From contig JAEUJY010000077.1 of assembly GCA_016794525.1 (NCBI GenBank), forward strand, positions 1-45,090: 45,090 nucleotides of DNA, written 5' to 3'. The stretch is from Myxococcales bacterium. GTDB lineage: Bacteria; Myxococcota_A; Polyangia; Haliangiales; Haliangiaceae. The translations under genes and the position numbers were made by a program. Under the pieces are notes generated by a model, which was not told the origin of the DNA, made no database searches, and worked only from the letters and a program-made list of their open reading frames with translations. Positions 4,254-12,606 of the stretch are shown here, piece by piece (position 1 is the stretch's first letter; the number at the start of each line of letters is the position of its first letter).

Positions 4254-4847
4254 CTACTTCTTCATCACGAGCACCGTCAGCACGCCCTGCAGCTGCGGCG
4301 CGGTGGCGCTCGAGACGTTGGCGGCGGTGGCGTTCGGGTCGACGGCGATGGCCTTGACCTCGACGGTGTGGTTGCCGGGCGTCAGGTTGTACGAGCGGGC
4401 CATCGACCAGTTGGCGATCATCTGGCCGACCGCCGCCGAGTTGGCGGCGACCACCCGGCGCACGCCGCCCTGGTTGGACGCGATGCCGTCGACGAAGATC
4501 GCGATGTCGACGGCCGAGTAGGCGGTGCCGGCGGCGGTGCACTGGATGCCGCCGTTGGTGCTGACGTGGACCGCGGCGTCGTCGGGCACGGTGATCACCT
4601 GCTGCAGGCCGGGGATCAGCACGTAGCTGGTGATCGCCGACGTCACCGTGAGCTGGCCGGTGCCGTAGATCTCGTAGAGGTTCTGGCCGGTGGTGCCGGC
4701 GGGGCCCGCCGGCCCGGTCGCGCCGATGTTGCCGGTGGCGCCGGTCTGGCCCGGGGGACCCTCGGGGCCGGGCTCGCCGTCGAGACCCGCCGGCCCCGAG
4801 CAAGCGACCGCGAGCAGGAGCGTACCGATCGGCCAGAGCGTGCGCAT
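4254..4847 (-). CDS. Collagen-like triple-helix repeat lipoprotein with a C-terminal globular (BclA/C1q-like) domain
   Basis: Start MRTLWPIGTLLLAVACS (lipobox) at 4845..4847. Thirteen consecutive G-X-Y triplets (GPAGLDGEPGPEGPPGQTGATGNIGATGPAGPAGTTGQN) are followed by a roughly 140-aa beta-rich domain. Convergent with the SBP gene, with stop codons 6 bp apart. Confidence 0.7.
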   Translation of the reverse strand: MRTLWPIGTLLLAVACSGPAGLDGEPGPEGPPGQTGATGNIGATGPAGPAGTTGQNLYEIYGTGQLTVTSAITSYVLIPGLQQVITVPDDAAVHVSTNGGIQCTAAGTAYSAVDIAIFVDGIASNQGGVRRVVAANSAAVGQMIANWSMARSYNLTPGNHTVEVKAIAVDPNATAANVSSATAPQLQGVLTVLVMKK

Positions 4848-4893
4848 CGCGCCGACGCTATCAGAGCGCTCGCCGGCTGTGTCAGCATGCGGC

Positions 4894-6000
4894 ATGCGTC
4901 GCTTCGCCGTCGTCGCTCTCGCCGCGCTCGCGTGCTCGAAGTCCTCGGCCCCGCCGCCGGCGGCGGCCCCGCCGCCGGCCACGCCGCCGACCCCGGTCCC
5001 CGCCGCGCCGGCGAGCTGCCTGCGCGACGTCGGCCAGGTCCAGGCCGCGCGCGGCGCGCCGAGCCAGCCGATGCGGCCGACCCACACCTTCTCGATCGTC
5101 GCGCGCGATCCGGTCACCGGCGATCTCGGCGTCGCGGTGCAGTCGCACTGGTTCGCGGTGGGTGCGCTCGTGACCTGGGCCGAGCCCGGCGTCGGCGCGA
5201 TCGCGACGCAGTCGTTCGCCGAGCCGGCCTACGGGCGCAAGGGCCTCGAGCGGATGCGCGCCGGCGCCAGCGCCCCCGACGCGCTGGCCGCGATCCTGGC
5301 CGAGGACGCCAAGCGCGACGTGCGGCAGGTGGCGTTCGTCGACGGCAAGGGCCAGGTCGCGGCCCACACCGGCGCCGCGAACATCGCGTTCGCCGGGCAC
5401 CACACCGGCGCCGGCTACTCGGTGCAGGCCAACATGATGGCCAACGATCGCGTCGTGCCGGCGATGCAGGCCGCCTACGAGGGCGCCACCGGGGACCTCG
5501 CCGAGCGCCTGCTGGCCACGCTGGCGGCGGCGCAGGCGGCGGGCGGCGACGTCCGCGGCTGCCAGTCGGCGGCCATGCTGATCGTCAAGGGCACGCCCTC
5601 GGCCGAGCCGTCCCACGACACGCTCGTCGACCTGCGCGTCGACGACGCCGCCGATCCGATCGGCGAGCTGGGCCGGCTGCTCAAGCTGCAGCGGGTCTAC
5701 GATCACATGAACGCTGGCGACGCCGCGGTCGAGCGCGGCGACGTCCCCGGCGCCAAGCAGCACTACGGCGCCGCGGCGGCCGCCGCCCCCGACCTGACCG
5801 AGGTCCGCTACTGGAGCGCGGTCGCGCTGGCCTCGGCCGGCGAGCTCGACGCCGCGCTGCCAATGTTCACCAAGATCTTCGCCGAGGACAGCCGGTGGAT
5901 CGAGCTGACCCGCCGCATCCAGCCGGCGGTGGTGCCCGCCACCCCCGAGGGCGACGCGGTGATCCAGAAGATCCTGACCGCCGCGCCGCCGCCGCGCTGA
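4894..6000 (+). CDS. DUF1028 family (Ntn-hydrolase-like) lipoprotein with a C-terminal helical extension
   Basis: Start MRRFAVVALAALACS. The mature part contains THTFSIVARDPVTGDLGVAVQS, matching the TFSI-ARD N-terminal nucleophile signature I associate with DUF1028. Divergent from the collagen-like gene with a 46-bp gap. Confidence 0.7.
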   Translation: MRRFAVVALAALACSKSSAPPPAAAPPPATPPTPVPAAPASCLRDVGQVQAARGAPSQPMRPTHTFSIVARDPVTGDLGVAVQSHWFAVGALVTWAEPGVGAIATQSFAEPAYGRKGLERMRAGASAPDALAAILAEDAKRDVRQVAFVDGKGQVAAHTGAANIAFAGHHTGAGYSVQANMMANDRVVPAMQAAYEGATGDLAERLLATLAAAQAAGGDVRGCQSAAMLIVKGTPSAEPSHDTLVDLRVDDAADPIGELGRLLKLQRVYDHMNAGDAAVERGDVPGAKQHYGAAAAAAPDLTEVRYWSAVALASAGELDAALPMFTKIFAEDSRWIELTRRIQPAVVPATPEGDAVIQKILTAAPPPR

Positions 6001-6030
6001 TCACGCCGGCGGGGTGATACGCTCACGGCG

Positions 6031-6621
6031 ATGGATCAGGATCGCGAGCTGCTCGAGCGGTGGCGCGCAGGCGACCAGGCCGCCGGCCGCGATCTGTTCG
6101 CGCGCTACTTCGATCCGCTGTTCCGGTTCTTCGCCAACAAGTGCAACGAGCCCGACGAGCTGGTCCAGGCGACGTTCTTCGCGCTGGTGAAGGCCCGCGA
6201 TCAGTTCGCCGGCCGCTCGAGCTTCCGCACCTACCTGTTCACGATCGCGCGCAACGAGCTGTACCGCTGGCTGCGCACGTTCAAGCGCGAGCGCGGCTTC
6301 GACCCCGAGCTGTCGTCGATCGCCGAGGTCGCGACCACCGCCGGCTCGCGGCTGGCCCGCAACGAGGAGCACCGCCGGCTGTGCGCCGCGCTGCGCACGC
6401 TGCCGGTCGAGTCGCAGACCCTGCTCGAGCTGCACTACTGGGAGGGCCTCGACGCCACCGCGCTGGCCGAGGTCTTCGACGCCCAGGTCGCCACCATCCG
6501 CCAGCGCCTCTCGCGCGCCCGCCTCGCCCTCAAGGACGCCCTGGCCGCCAGCGCCGGCGCCCCGCTGCCCCTGGCCACGGTCGAGGACATGGACACCTGG
6601 GCGAAGTCGCTGGCGGGATAG
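6031..6621 (+). CDS. ECF (sigma-70 family group IV) RNA polymerase sigma factor
   Basis: Region 2-like FFALVKARDQFAGRSSFRTYLFTIARNELYRWLR and region 4-like LPVESQTLLELHYWEGLDATALAEVFDAQVATIRQRLSRARLAL. No anti-sigma gene follows it. Confidence 0.85.
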   Translation: MDQDRELLERWRAGDQAAGRDLFARYFDPLFRFFANKCNEPDELVQATFFALVKARDQFAGRSSFRTYLFTIARNELYRWLRTFKRERGFDPELSSIAEVATTAGSRLARNEEHRRLCAALRTLPVESQTLLELHYWEGLDATALAEVFDAQVATIRQRLSRARLALKDALAASAGAPLPLATVEDMDTWAKSLAG

Positions 6622-6643
6622 GGCGCCCGGTGGGCGGGCCACT

Positions 6644-6655
6644 TTTTTCGGTCAC
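6644..6655 (+). promoter_or_regulatory. Conserved motif TTTTTCGGTCAC lying 28 nt upstream of the start codon of lipoprotein paralog A
   Basis: The same 12-mer occurs at 7800..7811 and 8948..8959, each with an identical 28-nt spacing to the ATG of paralogs B and C. A -10-like CTTCAT/CTGTAT/GTGTAT follows at a fixed offset. Confidence 0.45.
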
Positions 6656-6683
6656 AACGCCGACCGACCTTCATCCATTGGGC

Positions 6684-7742
6684 ATGAAGCGAACCGTTGT
6701 GGCACTCCCGCTCGCCCTGGCTCTGGCCGCGTGTGTCGATAGCCCTGGGGTCGGGCAGGACGAGAGCGCGGTCGTAAACGGCGATGGCGAAGCCTGTCCC
6801 AAGCTGGGCTGCAGCTCGAACTCGGCGTACCTGGGACCGACCGAGTTCCACGAGCTGGAGGAGACCGGGACTTACGCGAACGCCGAGGGCCTGTACCTCA
6901 AGGGCTTGATCAAGAACGGCGTGACCTGGCGTCCCGACGTCACCGGCACGGTATTGATCGGCTATCGATGGGTGCTGGTCGGCGGGATGCTGACCCGTCA
7001 GACGCTCAGCGGGGCGAACCTGGTCAACGCAGAGCTGGTGGTCAAGAACGCGGCCGGCACCCTCGAGTACCGGATCCGCATCACCAACGCGTCGCAGAAT
7101 CAGCAGTTCTGGCAGGCGCCGATCACCAGCGTGAACACCTACGAGCTCAAGTGGCGGCAGGTGGTGCCGACCTCGACCGACTTCGTCCCGGTGTGCAAGA
7201 ACCCGCCGAACCCGGAGACCGAGGACGGCCCCATCCAGAACACGATCGAGTCGATCCTGTTCACGGGCGATCGCTACGACACCGACACGCTGACGGTCAC
7301 CGCGTCGACGCCGGCCGAGGCGACGACCTGGTTCAACATCGGCTGCGCTGGGACGGTGCTCGCGAAGCTCGCGCTCAACCGGCACACCGACGCGACCAAG
7401 TCGGCCCAGGTCACCACCACTCGCGCCCAGCGCCAGGCGATGCTGAAGATGTACACGTCGGACGTGTGTGGCACGGGCGACGCGCTCACGGTCAGCGGCA
7501 CGCCGCTGCGCTGGTGGAGCGCCACCGGCCTCACCAGCAAGGTCATCCCGACGACCTCCAAGGAGGCGCTGTGGACCCAAAACGGCGCCCTCTGCCTCGA
7601 CACGCATCGGCTCGACGGCACCGCGGACGACATGACCAAGCAGATCGAGGACGCCTGCAAGCGAGCCAACCGGCCGGTCCCGCCACCCTGCGTCGATGTC
7701 TCGAGCCCCTGGGACTTCCGGACCGAGAGCCAGGCTCAATGA
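6684..7742 (+). CDS. Secreted lipoprotein, paralog A of a tandem triplicated Cys-rich family
   Basis: Start MKRTVVALPLALALAAC. Blocks GDGEACPKLGCSSNSAYLGPTEFHELEETGTY, VCKNPPN, FNIGCAGTVLAKLALNRHT, YTSDVC, GALCLDTHRL and ANRPVPPPC are shared with paralogs B and C. Confidence 0.8.
   Translation: MKRTVVALPLALALAACVDSPGVGQDESAVVNGDGEACPKLGCSSNSAYLGPTEFHELEETGTYANAEGLYLKGLIKNGVTWRPDVTGTVLIGYRWVLVGGMLTRQTLSGANLVNAELVVKNAAGTLEYRIRITNASQNQQFWQAPITSVNTYELKWRQVVPTSTDFVPVCKNPPNPETEDGPIQNTIESILFTGDRYDTDTLTVTASTPAEATTWFNIGCAGTVLAKLALNRHTDATKSAQVTTTRAQRQAMLKMYTSDVCGTGDALTVSGTPLRWWSATGLTSKVIPTTSKEALWTQNGALCLDTHRLDGTADDMTKQIEDACKRANRPVPPPCVDVSSPWDFRTESQAQ
7259..7560. repeat. Roughly 300-bp direct repeat, about 88-90% nt identity, between paralog A (about 7259..7560) and paralog B (about 8404..8690)
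   Basis: The DNA aligns directly across the GDRYDTDTLTVTASTPAEATTWFNIGCAGTVLAKLALNRHTDATKSAQVTTTR region. This region is identical at the protein level in A and B but diverged in C. Confidence 0.6.
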
Positions 7743-7799
7743 GCTAACGATCTCAGGCCGTTACGTCGCCGGGTCGCCCAGATGGGGTGACCCGGCGCG

Positions 7800-7811
7800 T
7801 TTTTCGGTCAC
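7800..7811 (+). promoter_or_regulatory. Second copy of TTTTTCGGTCAC, 28 nt upstream of the ATG of paralog B
   Basis: Direct sequence comparison. It is flanked upstream by GGTGACC, which forms an inverted repeat with GGTCAC. Confidence 0.45.
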
Positions 7812-7839
7812 GGCGCGCGTCTTCCTGTATCTACGGGGC

Positions 7840-8889
7840 ATGACGCGACACATCATGGCGCTGGCGGCGGCGCTGGCGGCGGGCTGAACTGGCGAACTGG
7901 CGACCGGAAGCGGCGAGAGCCTGGTCATCAACGGTGATGGCGAGGCCTGCCCGAAGCTCGGCTGCAGCTCCAACTCGGCGTACCTGGGCCCGACCGAGTT
8001 CCACGAGCTCGAGGAGACCGGCACGTACCCCAACGCCGAAGGCCTGTACCTCAAGGGCCTGGTCAAGAACGGCTTGACCTATCGCCCCAACGTCACGGGG
8101 ACGGAGTTGACCGCCTCGCGCTGGGCGTTGGTCGGTGGCTTCTGGATCTACCAGACACTCAGCGGGGCGAACCTGGTCAACTCCGAGCTGGTGGTCAAGA
8201 ACGCCACCGGCTCGCTCGAGTACCGCATCCGCATCGCGAACGCGTCGACGATCCAGAAGTTCTGGCAGGCCCCGATCACCACGGTGAACACCTACGAGCT
8301 CCAGTGGCGCCTGGCCACCTCCACCTACTACACCCCGGTGTGCAAGAACCCGCCGAACCGCCTGGATGACACCGGCAACTGGAACAACATCCTCGAGGCG
8401 ATCCTCTTCACCGGCGATCGCTACGACACCGACACCCTGACAGTCACCGCGTCGACGCCGGCGGAGGCGACGACCTGGTTCAACATCGGCTGCGCCGGGA
8501 CGGTCCTGGCGAAGCTCGCCCTCAACCGGCACACCGACGCGACGAAGTCGGCGCAGGTCACCACCACGCGGGACCAGCGGCAGGCGATGCTGAAGATGTA
8601 CACGTCGGACGTGTGCAACAGCGGCGACGCGTTGACCGTGACCGGCACGCCGTTGCGCTGGTGGAGCGCCACCGGCCTCACCAGCAAGGCGATCGCGGTC
8701 TACTCCAACGAGGCGCGGTGGACCGCCGATGGCGCGCTGTGTCTGGACACGCACCGGCTCGATGGGACCCCGGATGACAGGACCGCGCAGATCGCGGACG
8801 CCTGCCAGCGCGCCAACCGACCGGTGCCCCCGCCCTGTGCCGACGTCACGACCAGCTGGGACTTCCGCACCGAGAGCCAGGCGCACTAA
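7840..8889 (+). pseudogene. Lipoprotein paralog B with an in-frame TGA (7885..7887) exactly at the lipobox Cys codon
   Basis: A single reading frame gives MTRHIMALAAALAAG, then TGA, then TGELATGSGESLVINGDGEACPKLGCSSNS and the rest through 8889. Paralog C has Cys at the same position (LAAVGC). Downstream the protein is about 90% identical to A. Confidence 0.6.
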
Positions 8890-8947
8890 CGACACGTTTT
8901 CAGATGGTTGGACGCGGGGGCACCGGAAAAGGGTGACCCCGGTGTGC

Positions 8948-8959
8948 TTTTTCGGTCAC
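8948..8959 (+). promoter_or_regulatory. Third copy of TTTTTCGGTCAC, 28 nt upstream of the ATG of paralog C
   Basis: Direct sequence comparison. It is preceded by GGGTGACCCCGG, the same arrangement as upstream of B. Confidence 0.45.
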
Positions 8960-8987
8960 AGGGGACCGCCGCGTGTATCAACCCGGC

Positions 8988-10070
8988 ATGACCCGACACA
9001 TCCTGGCACTCGCGACGGCGCTGGCGGCGGTGGGCTGTACGGACGACCTGGTGACCGGAAGCGACGAGAGCCCGGTCATCAATGGAGATGGCGAGGCCTG
9101 CCCCAAGCTCGGGTGCAGCTCGAACTCGGCGTACCTGGGCCCGACCGAGTTCCACGAGCTCGAGGAGACCGGCACCTACGCCAACGCCGAGGGCTTCCGG
9201 ATCACCAGCTTCACCAAGACGGTGGGCGGCGTGACCACGACCTACCGCCCCGACGTCACCGGGACGACGCTGGTGGGCAAGCGGTACAGCACCTTGATCC
9301 ACGGCTGGTACACCGCGCTCAGCGGCCCCGACCTGGTCGGCGCGGTGTTCAACGTCGACCGCACCGTCCGCGGTGTCGTCACGGCGAGGTACCAGATCGG
9401 GATCACCGCGGCGAGCACCGCGCAGGAGTACTGGCAGCCGCCGGCCGGCCTGCTGAACACCTACGAGCTGCAGTGGCGCATGATCTACCCGAGCGCCACC
9501 CACCTCGTGCCGGTCTGCAACAACCCACCCAACCGTCTCGATGGCGAGGGGACGTGGTGGCGCAAGACCACCGAGGCGGTACTGTTCACGGGCGATCGCT
9601 ACGACACCGAGTCGCTGACCGTGACCGCCGGCGATCCAGCGTCGTCGGGTGACTGGTTCAACATCGGCTGCTCGGGCACCGTGCTGGCCAAGCTCGCGCT
9701 CAACCGCCACACCTTCGCCACCCAGTCGTCCACGGCGCCGACCACGATCGCGCAACGCCAGGCGATGCTCAAGATGTACGCCTCGGACGTGTGTAACACC
9801 GGCGACGCGCTGACCGTGGTCGGCACGCCGCTGCGCTGGAACAGCACCACCGGCCTGGCCAGCCCCCCGATCGCGGTGAACAGCTACGAGGCCCGGTGGA
9901 CTGCCAGCGGGGCGCTCTGCCTCGACACCCACCGCCTGAACGGCACCCCCGACGACATGGACGCGCAGATCGCCGCCGCGTGCGCCGCCGCGGGCAAGGC
10001 GGTGCCGCCGCCGTGCGCGGGCGCGTCGACGAGCTACTACCTGCGCACCACCAGCCCCGCGCTGCCCTGA
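8988..10070 (+). CDS. Secreted lipoprotein, paralog C of the tandem family (more diverged)
   Basis: Start MTRHILALATALAAVGC; a GTG at 8973 is an alternative start. All family Cys blocks are retained. Convergent with the kinase gene, whose stop is 7 bp away. Confidence 0.8.
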   Translation: MTRHILALATALAAVGCTDDLVTGSDESPVINGDGEACPKLGCSSNSAYLGPTEFHELEETGTYANAEGFRITSFTKTVGGVTTTYRPDVTGTTLVGKRYSTLIHGWYTALSGPDLVGAVFNVDRTVRGVVTARYQIGITAASTAQEYWQPPAGLLNTYELQWRMIYPSATHLVPVCNNPPNRLDGEGTWWRKTTEAVLFTGDRYDTESLTVTAGDPASSGDWFNIGCSGTVLAKLALNRHTFATQSSTAPTTIAQRQAMLKMYASDVCNTGDALTVVGTPLRWNSTTGLASPPIAVNSYEARWTASGALCLDTHRLNGTPDDMDAQIAAACAAAGKAVPPPCAGASTSYYLRTTSPALP

Positions 10071-10077
10071 CCCGGTG

Positions 10078-12606
<2,529 letters not shown>

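What the first reader, a model, noticed from the sequence alone, without database searches (positions are those of the whole stretch)
7840..7890. In-frame TGA exactly at the lipobox cysteine codon of the middle lipoprotein paralog
Paralog B reads in one frame as MTRHIMALAAALAAG, then TGA (7885..7887), then TGELATGSGESLVINGDGEAC and the rest of the protein. Paralogs A and C have the invariant lipobox Cys (TGY) at this position. A single TGC/TGT-to-TGA change would explain it. The rest of B is intact and about 90% identical to A over long stretches. The alternatives are a very recent pseudogenisation, a base-call error, or an on/off variant. Selenocysteine recoding is implausible at a lipidation site.
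Basis: seen in the sequence. Interest (0 to 1): 0.6.

Follow-up and report, generated by a model that had tools for sequence, protein, structure and literature searches.

The report
Recent nonsense mutation in lipoprotein paralog
The middle gene of three tandem lipoprotein genes in a myxobacterial metagenome genome has a stop codon in place of the cysteine that anchors the protein to the membrane, and it is most likely an ordinary, very recent knock-out (or an assembly error), not a recoding signal.

Summary
Gene B (7840..8889, +) has one in-frame TGA, at 7885..7887 (codon 16). All 13 other B/C orthologues I aligned have TGC/TGT there, and 68 family members have the lipobox Cys.

A, B and C are ADYC-domain (PF20032) lipoproteins downstream of an ECF sigma factor in a Myxococcales MAG. 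NCBI annotates only a truncated 260-aa ORF, JNK64_17295.

B is a mosaic: its 5' ~200 nt resemble C and its body resembles A. It is present in some related genomes and absent from others. An intact orthologue exists (L017). The body of B is under purifying selection (dN/dS 0.11-0.21; window branch 14 synonymous vs 5 non-synonymous), so the lesion is very recent.

The TGA is not a lone change. Seven of eight window-specific substitutions in the first 87 nt turn imperfect repeats into perfect 12-nt and 8-nt tandem repeats (0 of 200,000 random sets match). This suggests templated slippage or a read-misalignment/polishing artefact.

There is no TGA-specific SECIS-like hairpin, Rfam hit or tRNA. TGA ends genes A and C.

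Verdict: an ordinary recent pseudogene or null allele (~0.65), assembly artefact (~0.27), recoding very unlikely. Low interest.

The parts
7840..8889 (+). Paralog B: ADYC-domain lipoprotein gene of 349 codons, interrupted only by TGA at codon 16
   Evidence: Translation. Pfam PF20032, 96 bits against a cut-off of 27, with Cys restored. GC3 0.94.
7885..7887 (+). In-frame TGA replacing the lipobox (+1) cysteine codon
   Evidence: TGC/TGT in the 13 other B/C copies aligned. Cys near-invariant in the family.
7886..7903 (+). Perfect 8-nt tandem repeat GAACTGGC x2.2 that overlaps the GA of the TGA. It is created by four window-specific substitutions: 7887 T>A, 7890 G>T, 7892 A>G, 7896 C>A
   Evidence: TRF, 5' alignment, simulation. 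The 24-mer is unique in the window.
7857..7886 (+). 12-nt tandem repeat GGCGCTGGCGGC x2.6 in the signal-peptide h-region ((ALAA)x2). It became perfect through window-specific 7860 A>G, 7863 C>G, 7867 A>G and a one-codon deletion
   Evidence: TRF, 5' alignment, simulation.
7798..8034 (+). C-like 5' segment of the mosaic gene: upstream region, signal peptide, linker and the conserved NGDGEACPKLGCSSNSAYLGPTEFHELEETG block
   Evidence: Sliding identity is 0.73-0.97 for B-C against 0.47-0.92 for B-A. In the 5' tree each B groups with the C of its own genome.
8035..8889 (+). A-like body of the mosaic gene. This is a distinct B lineage under purifying selection
   Evidence: Sliding identity, body tree, dN/dS 0.11-0.21, 14 S: 5 N on the window branch.
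8691..8727 (+). Short gene-conversion tract from C into B: six window-specific changes, all to the state found in C genes
   Evidence: 3' alignment. Codons 286, 287 and 290.
8107..8889 (+). Truncated 260-aa ORF (TTG start) that NCBI annotates as hypothetical protein JNK64_17295 / MBL8623075.1. It lacks the signal peptide and the first two invariant Cys
   Evidence: P0003 is 100% identical.
7767..7805 (+). Intrinsic-terminator-like hairpin (13 bp, 11 G-C) plus T tract after gene A
7806..7831 (+). Conserved GGTCAC-N14-TGTATC motif between the terminator and the ATG of B. Copies lie upstream of A (6650..6675) and C (8954..8979). It may be an ECF-type promoter giving a near-leaderless mRNA (inference)
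   Evidence: One search finds 3 sites against 0.12 expected, but the sites are paralogous copies. The motif is conserved in orthologous loci.
6684..7742 (+). Paralog A: intact ADYC lipoprotein with lipobox LAAC, ends in TGA
8988..10070 (+). Paralog C: intact ADYC lipoprotein with lipobox AVGC, ends in TGA
6031..6621 (+). ECF sigma factor gene immediately upstream of the array
   Evidence: Pfam Sigma70_r2/ECF/r4_2 and TIGR02937.

Best explanation
B is a recently inactivated copy (a null allele or young unitary pseudogene) of an ADYC-domain lipoprotein gene. B is a mosaic paralog, with a C-like 5' end and an A-like body. It sits in a tandem array that gains, loses and homogenises copies by homologous recombination. 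In this genome a multi-nucleotide, repeat-templated mutation in the signal-peptide/linker region rewrote TGT ACG GAC GAC to TGA ACT GGC GAA. The likely mechanism is slipped misalignment between two adjacent imperfect 8-nt repeats, or an 8-nt deletion plus an 8-nt duplication. This replaced the lipobox Cys codon with a stop. Translation from the normal ATG then ends after 15 residues. The first downstream in-frame starts (TTG 8074/8107) would give a cytoplasmic fragment without the signal peptide, the lipid anchor or the first conserved disulfide cysteines, so no functional product is expected. What is shown: the stop, its uniqueness among orthologues, the mosaic structure, purifying selection on the body, and the repeat-creating pattern of the changes. 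What is inferred: that the change exists in the cells' DNA rather than only in the assembly, the slippage mechanism, and the loss of function.
For: TGA sits at codon 16 in an otherwise open 349-codon frame. TGC/TGT is present in all 13 other B/C copies, and an intact B orthologue exists in L017 (P0107). B bodies form one clade with dN/dS 0.11-0.21, similar to A and C. The window-specific changes in codons 46-349 are 14 synonymous and 5 non-synonymous, and 3 of the 5 lie in a C-derived conversion tract. Neutral evolution can therefore have lasted only a small fraction of the terminal branch. Seven of eight window-specific substitutions in the first 87 nt convert quasi-repeats into perfect 12-nt and 8-nt tandem repeats. 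None of 200,000 random sets of eight substitutions does so. That pattern points to a templated process, not random base-call noise. The neighbouring genes (SBP, DUF1028, sigma, A, C, kinase, Sel1-like) have the same lengths as in L001/L015, so the assembly is not generally error-ridden. B is dispensable: it is absent from the syntenic arrays of L001/L018, L020 and L022. TGA is an ordinary stop here, since it ends A, C and the DUF1028 gene. There is no in-frame start until 8074.
Against: No reads and no second assembly of this population were available, so an assembly artefact cannot be excluded. Lesions in other B orthologues (a 4-nt deletion in L015, a 55-nt deletion in L036, homopolymer insertions in L016) are each confined to one assembly. 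Each is missing from a 98.6-99.5% identical sister contig. Most lie in repeated or homopolymeric sequence. This shows that the paralog array is error-prone in metagenome assemblies. The ancestral sequence used for the repeat argument is inferred from paralogs and orthologues, and I chose the test statistic after seeing the pattern.
Confidence: 0.65

Rival explanations
1. Assembly, consensus or polishing artefact. The cells carry an intact Cys codon. The TGA and the neighbouring changes arose when reads were misaligned by one repeat unit, or when strain variants differing by small indels were merged, in a GC-rich quasi-repetitive stretch of a three-copy paralog array.
For: Misalignment by one unit would produce exactly the observed kind of 'templated' cluster. 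Other assemblies of this array carry assembly-specific lesions. L036 has a 55-nt deletion in B and a 6-nt deletion in C that start after the same GCGTAC. L016 has 7 one-base indels relative to L036. L015 has a 4-nt deletion that is absent from the 99.5% identical L017. The 237-kb contig of a 74% GC organism suggests a long-read or hybrid assembly (inference).
Against: The rest of the window's syntenic region has no frameshift or stop in any gene. The stretch around the TGA is unique in the window and only about 80-85% identical to C, so it is not a collapsed repeat. From general knowledge, real single-lesion pseudogenes are commoner in bacterial genomes than consensus substitution errors that create stops.
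Confidence: 0.27
2. The UGA is decoded, either as selenocysteine or by near-cognate readthrough (Trp/Cys). B would then still yield some full-length protein.
For: UGA aligns with Cys in homologues, which is the classic signature of Sec/Cys pairs. The codon is followed by A, a context reported to be leaky for tRNA-Trp in E. coli (my recollection of Engelberg-Kulka 1981, not checked here). The body of the gene is well conserved.
Against: The only downstream hairpin (+31..+64, z = -2.1) encodes the conserved VINGDG segment and is also present in A and C, which have no UGA. There is no Rfam match at E<=1 and no tRNA in the window. TGA terminates A and C. No orthologue shares the TGA. Sec or Trp at the Lgt-modified +1 position has no precedent that I know of. 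Body conservation is explained by the recency of the lesion.
Confidence: 0.03
3. A reversible on/off (phase-variable) switch driven by the tandem repeats in the 5' coding region.
For: Two perfect short tandem repeats flank or overlap the stop. The 5' end of B is actively exchanged with C, so conversion from C could in principle restore the Cys codon.
Against: There are only 2.2-2.6 copies, far fewer than known contingency tracts. Losing or gaining an 8-nt unit leaves the TGA in place and shifts the frame. No related contig shows repeat-number variation at this site.
Confidence: 0.03
4. An old, decaying pseudogene shared by the clade.
For: Several B orthologues carry some lesion. B is missing from some genomes.
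Against: The lesions all differ, and each is absent from a near-identical sister contig. L017 is intact. dN/dS is 0.11-0.21 among B orthologues, and the window's B has no second lesion.
Confidence: 0.02

Closest known systems
Bacterial lipoprotein precursors (type II signal peptide with lipobox, processed by Lgt, LspA, Lnt)
   Same: A, C and the restored B have a basic n-region, an Ala/Leu h-region and [AG]-C at residues 15-17. The Cys is near-invariant in the family.
   Different: In the window's B the Cys codon is a stop, so no substrate for Lgt can be made. Lipidation itself was not tested for any member.
Pfam PF20032 ADYC domain family (uncharacterised, mainly Myxococcota)
   Same: All three paralogs score 75-97 bits against a cut-off of 27.
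Young unitary pseudogenes / null alleles made by a nonsense mutation in a redundant tandem paralog
   Same: There is a single disabling lesion, intact orthologues exist, selection is unrelaxed elsewhere in the gene, and the gene is dispensable in relatives.
   Different: The lesion is part of a multi-nucleotide, repeat-creating cluster rather than a simple point mutation.
Templated (misalignment) mutagenesis at imperfect direct repeats, as described for phage T4 and E. coli (Ripley; Schultz and Drake; recalled, not read here)
   Same: Clustered base changes each convert one copy of a quasi-repeat to the sequence of its neighbour.
   Different: This is inferred only from comparative sequence. 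The direction and number of events are unknown, and a read-misalignment artefact would look the same.
Bacterial selenoprotein genes (e.g. fdhF) with UGA plus an adjacent SECIS hairpin
   Same: The in-frame UGA sits where homologues have Cys.
   Different: There is no UGA-specific hairpin, no Rfam hit and no conservation of the UGA, and the site is a lipidation site.

Membership tests
PF20032 ADYC domain | Score above Pfam's gathering threshold (27 bits) | tested here: met
   A 97.2, B (Cys restored) 96.0 and C 74.6 bits.
Bacterial lipoprotein precursor (PROSITE PS51257-type signal) | Basic residue near the N-terminus, an uncharged h-region, and [LIVMFWSTAG]2-[LIVMFYSTAGCQ]-[AGS]-C with Cys at about residue 15-35 | tested here: not met
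   For B as encoded, the Cys codon is TGA. A (LAAC), C (AVGC) and B with Cys restored do meet the rule.
Bacterial lipoprotein precursor | Diacylglyceryl modification and LspA cleavage of the product | not testable with these tools
   Needs biochemistry or proteomics.
Recent (unitary) pseudogene / null allele | A disabling lesion in a gene whose orthologues are intact | tested here: met
   TGA at codon 16. The intact orthologue P0107/L017 has TGC. The other 13 B/C copies have TGY.
Recent (unitary) pseudogene / null allele | No relaxation of selection yet on the rest of the gene | tested here: met
   dN/dS 0.11-0.21. 14 S: 5 N on the window branch.
Recent (unitary) pseudogene / null allele | The lesion is present in the organism's DNA, not only in the assembly | not testable with these tools
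   No reads are available, and neither A nor P0003 is on record in other assemblies.
Bacterial selenoprotein gene | In-frame UGA aligned with Cys in homologues | tested here: met
Bacterial selenoprotein gene | SECIS stem-loop immediately 3' of the UGA, specific to the UGA-bearing copy | tested here: not met
   The hairpin lies at +31..+64, with z = -2.1, and lies in the VINGDG-coding stretch that A and C (no UGA) share almost unchanged; their hairpins were judged by eye from the alignment, not folded. No Rfam match.
Bacterial selenoprotein gene | tRNA-Sec and selA/selB/selD in the genome | not testable with these tools
   Only the 45-kb window is available, and it holds no tRNA.
UGA-reassigned genetic code (tables 4/25) | UGA not used as a terminator | tested here: not met
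   A, C and the DUF1028 gene end in TGA.
Phase-variable contingency locus | A long simple-sequence tract whose copy-number change toggles the reading frame or promoter | tested here: not met
   Only 2.2 and 2.6 copies. A change of one unit would not remove the TGA. No copy-number variation is seen in related contigs.

The most novel reading that the evidence does not exclude
Loss-of-function of the B cassette might be recurrent and selected. B is a laterally exchanged, dispensable surface-lipoprotein cassette: B orthologues are 92-95% identical between genomes whose A and C genes are only 83-89% identical. Four of five B orthologues carry different disabling lesions, three of them in the 5' part of the gene (the L016 insertions lie near the 3' end), and other strains lack B entirely. 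If those lesions are real rather than assembly errors, populations may keep switching B off, for example under phage, predator or kin-recognition pressure. The repeat-rich 5' end and exchange with C would supply both the mutations and the repair template. A still bolder variant is low-level decoding of the UGA.
Probability: 0.07. Interest if true: 0.5.

Novelty: new member of a known kind. Interest (0 to 1): 0.15.

Why it matters
It matters little beyond annotation. The NCBI record lists a truncated 260-aa 'hypothetical protein' (JNK64_17295) that should probably be flagged as a pseudogene or checked against reads. The locus is a neat small example of birth-and-death evolution, gene conversion and templated mutation in a tandem array of uncharacterised myxobacterial lipoproteins. 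It also shows that such arrays are error-prone in metagenome assemblies. It gives no evidence for stop-codon recoding at a lipidation site.

Tried and rejected
- **Exact-protein look-ups.** Look-ups of A and of the PGAP product P0003 in other assemblies found nothing on record. No independent assembly of this population could be compared.
- **Protein search for an intact allele.** With Cys-restored B as query, no hit above 94% identity appeared apart from the window's own truncated call.
- **Selenocysteine.** The downstream fold, the Rfam scan at E<=1 and the tRNA scan were all negative or non-specific.
- **Code reassignment.** Rejected because A and C end in TGA.
- **Old pseudogene.** Rejected because of the intact L017 orthologue and the low dN/dS.
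- **Donor for the TGA-bearing string.** No other copy occurs in the window within 3 mismatches.
- **Frameshift scan.** A crude GC3-based scan of the whole window was too noisy to use. I relied instead on matching gene lengths in the syntenic loci.
- **Literature on templated mutagenesis.** The search returned nothing directly useful, so that comparison rests on my own knowledge.

Full report
**1. Observation.**
Window 7840..7887 reads ATG ACG CGA CAC ATC ATG GCG CTG GCG GCG GCG CTG GCG GCG GGC TGA. The frame then continues without another stop for 333 codons to TAA at 8887..8889. Its GC3 is 0.94 in a 74% GC window, so this is the coding frame.

Paralog A (6684..7742) has GCG TGT and paralog C (8988..10070) has GGC TGT at the aligned codon. 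With Cys restored, B satisfies a PROSITE-type lipobox rule. No in-frame ATG/GTG/TTG exists between the TGA and TTG 8074.

**2. What the genes are.**
A, B and C each match Pfam PF20032 (ADYC domain) at 75-97 bits against a cut-off of 27. No NCBIfam model matches them. They follow an ECF sigma factor gene (6031..6621) and precede a convergent Ser/Thr kinase gene (10078..12606, minus strand).

An alignment of 69 family members shows eight (near-)invariant cysteines in the mature part and a near-invariant Cys after the hydrophobic N-terminus. This fits an exported, disulfide-bonded lipoprotein.

**3. Source.**
The window's own genome is an NCBI MAG labelled 'Myxococcales bacterium'. Its annotation calls only a 260-aa ORF from TTG 8107 (JNK64_17295, MBL8623075.1; P0003 is 100% identical), on a 237-kb contig.

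**4. Related loci.**
Syntenic contigs were recovered from genome and metagenome collections. Classification by blastn and ORF reading gives these arrays:
- window: A-B-C
- L015 and L017: Z-A-B-C
- L016 and L036: A-B-C
- L001/L018, L020 and L022: A-C, with no B
- L019: an A/B-intermediate gene followed by C

B is therefore a dispensable, variably present member of the array.

**5. B is a mosaic.**
Sliding-window identity shows that 7798..8034 is closer to C (0.73-0.97) than to A. From about 8035 onward B is closer to A (0.7-0.95) than to C (0.43-0.8).

In a tree of the body, all B copies form one clade, sister to the L019 gene and then to the A clade. In a tree of the first 200 nt, each B groups with the C gene of its own genome. 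So the 5' ends of B and C evolve in concert within each genome.

The window's B also carries a short patch (8691..8727) in which six window-specific changes all match the C state. Gene conversion is thus active in this array.

B bodies are more alike between genomes than the flanking genes are. Window against L036 gives 95% for B but 83.6% for A and 83.4% for C. This suggests that the cassette has been exchanged between lineages (inference).

**6. State of the codon elsewhere.**
In the 5' alignment of 14 B/C copies, every copy except the window's B has TGC or TGT. L017 (SXGT01299685.1) encodes a fully intact B (P0107).

Other B orthologues carry lesions of other kinds:
- L015 has a 4-nt deletion at the EAC codon. 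It is the only indel in 5 kb relative to the 99.5% identical L017.
- L036 has a 55-nt deletion. It begins after the same GCGTAC at which the C gene of that contig has a 6-nt deletion.
- L016 has two +1 homopolymer insertions. That contig has seven one-base indels relative to L036, and L036 lacks both insertions.

Each lesion is confined to one assembly. Most lie in sequence repeated among the paralogs or in homopolymers, so assembly error is a reasonable explanation for them. I cannot exclude that some are real.

**7. Selection.**
Nei-Gojobori estimates for codons 46 to the end give dN/dS of 0.11-0.21 among B orthologues. The values are 0.15-0.27 for A and 0.14-0.32 for C.

Changes unique to the window's B in that region are 14 synonymous and 5 non-synonymous. 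Three of the five lie in the C-derived conversion patch. With about 3 non-synonymous sites per synonymous site, neutrality over the whole terminal branch would predict roughly 40 non-synonymous changes.

The gene was therefore under purifying selection until very recently. If the stop is real, it is young.

**8. The stop is part of a repeat-creating cluster.**
The nearest 5' relatives are C of the window and C of L022, which read GGC TGT ACG GAC GAC CTG GYG ACC. The window's B reads GGC TGA ACT GGC GAA CTG GCG ACC.

That is four substitutions within 10 nt (7887, 7890, 7892, 7896). Each one replaces a base of one half of an imperfect 8-nt repeat (GTACGGAC | GACCTGGC) with the base of the other half. 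The result is the perfect repeat GAACTGGC GAACTGGC GA at 7886..7903.

Upstream, three more window-specific substitutions (7860, 7863, 7867) and a one-codon deletion turn GCACTCGCGACG GCGCTGGCGGCG into two perfect GCGCTGGCGGCG units.

Only one of the eight window-specific substitutions in the first 87 nt (7913) is not of this kind. In 200,000 simulations of eight random substitutions on the inferred ancestor, none produced two such repeats. Only 11 matched the longest run. The statistic was chosen after I saw the pattern, and the ancestor is inferred, but the effect is large.

The changes therefore arose by a templated process. In cells this could be slipped misalignment between adjacent quasi-repeats, or paired small duplication and deletion. 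In silico it could be misalignment of reads by one repeat unit during consensus building or polishing. A lone random base-call error does not explain the cluster.

**9. Recoding.**
- The only notable hairpin downstream of the UGA lies at +31..+64 (z = -2.1). It is formed by the conserved VINGDG-coding sequence, which A and C also contain without any UGA.
- Rfam finds nothing at E<=1 in 6000..10500.
- The window has no tRNA gene.
- TGA terminates A, C and the DUF1028 gene, so the code is standard.
- No orthologue shares the TGA.

Selenocysteine or a reassigned codon is not supported. Low-level near-cognate readthrough cannot be excluded by sequence alone, but there is no positive evidence for it.

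**10. On/off switching.**
The repeats have only 2.2 and 2.6 copies. Gain or loss of an 8-nt unit would not remove the TGA and would shift the frame. Related contigs show no copy-number variation. Conversion from C could in principle restore the Cys codon, but that is ordinary recombination, not a dedicated switch.

**11. Verdict.**
The most likely reading is an ordinary, very recent loss-of-function allele of a dispensable mosaic paralog, made by a repeat-templated multi-nucleotide mutation (confidence about 0.65). The main rival is an assembly or polishing artefact in an error-prone paralog array (about 0.27). The remainder is split among recoding or readthrough, phase variation and an old pseudogene.

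The decisive test is the read pile-up at 7860..7896, which these tools do not provide. Novelty is low: this is a new instance of a known kind of event in an uncharacterised protein family.

Noticed in passing
window 7798..8889; L001, L015-L022, L036: B is a mosaic paralog with a C-like 5' end and an A-like body. It is present in some related genomes and absent from others. In each genome the 5' end of B groups with that genome's own C gene (concerted evolution). B bodies are 92-95% identical between genomes whose A and C genes are only 83-89% identical, which suggests lateral exchange of the cassette.
   Followed up: partly
window 8691..8727: Six window-specific changes in B all match the state of C genes. 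This is a short gene-conversion patch, and it accounts for 3 of the 5 non-synonymous changes on the window branch.
   Followed up: yes
L015 6055..6065; L036 4990..5000 and its C gene; L016 1610..1790: Other B orthologues carry assembly-specific lesions: a 4-nt deletion, a 55-nt deletion (with a 6-nt deletion at the same GCGTAC in the neighbouring C gene), and homopolymer +1 insertions. Each is absent from a 98.6-99.5% identical sister contig. They are probably assembly errors but could be real null alleles.
   Followed up: partly
window 6650..6675, 7806..7831, 8954..8979: A conserved GGTCAC-N14-T(G/T)(T/C)ATC motif lies between an intrinsic-terminator-like hairpin with T tract and each paralog's ATG. 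It ends about 8 nt before the ATG and is conserved in orthologous loci. It may be an ECF-sigma-type promoter giving near-leaderless transcripts. The three sites are paralogous copies, so the enrichment is not independent evidence.
   Followed up: partly
[not shown]
   Followed up: partly
window 8107..8889: The public annotation (JNK64_17295, MBL8623075.1) lists a 260-aa 'hypothetical protein' from a TTG start and does not flag an interrupted gene.
   Followed up: yes
window 4254..5117 (minus strand): This ORF has a short collagen-like Gly-X-Y stretch (GPAGLDGEPGPEGPPGQTGATGNIGATGPAGPAGTTG). It is conserved in L001 and L015, where it has a weak Pfam Collagen hit.
   Followed up: no
L034 1..130: A 126-nt fragment 98% identical (translated) to residues 60-101 of the B query, i.e. 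nearest to B of the window, abuts unrelated sequence right after '...NSEL' followed by TAG. This is either a chimeric contig or a rearranged copy.
   Followed up: no
L015 3691..4731: L015 and L017 carry a fourth, more divergent ADYC paralog (Z, 346 aa) between the sigma factor gene and A. The window lacks it.
   Followed up: no
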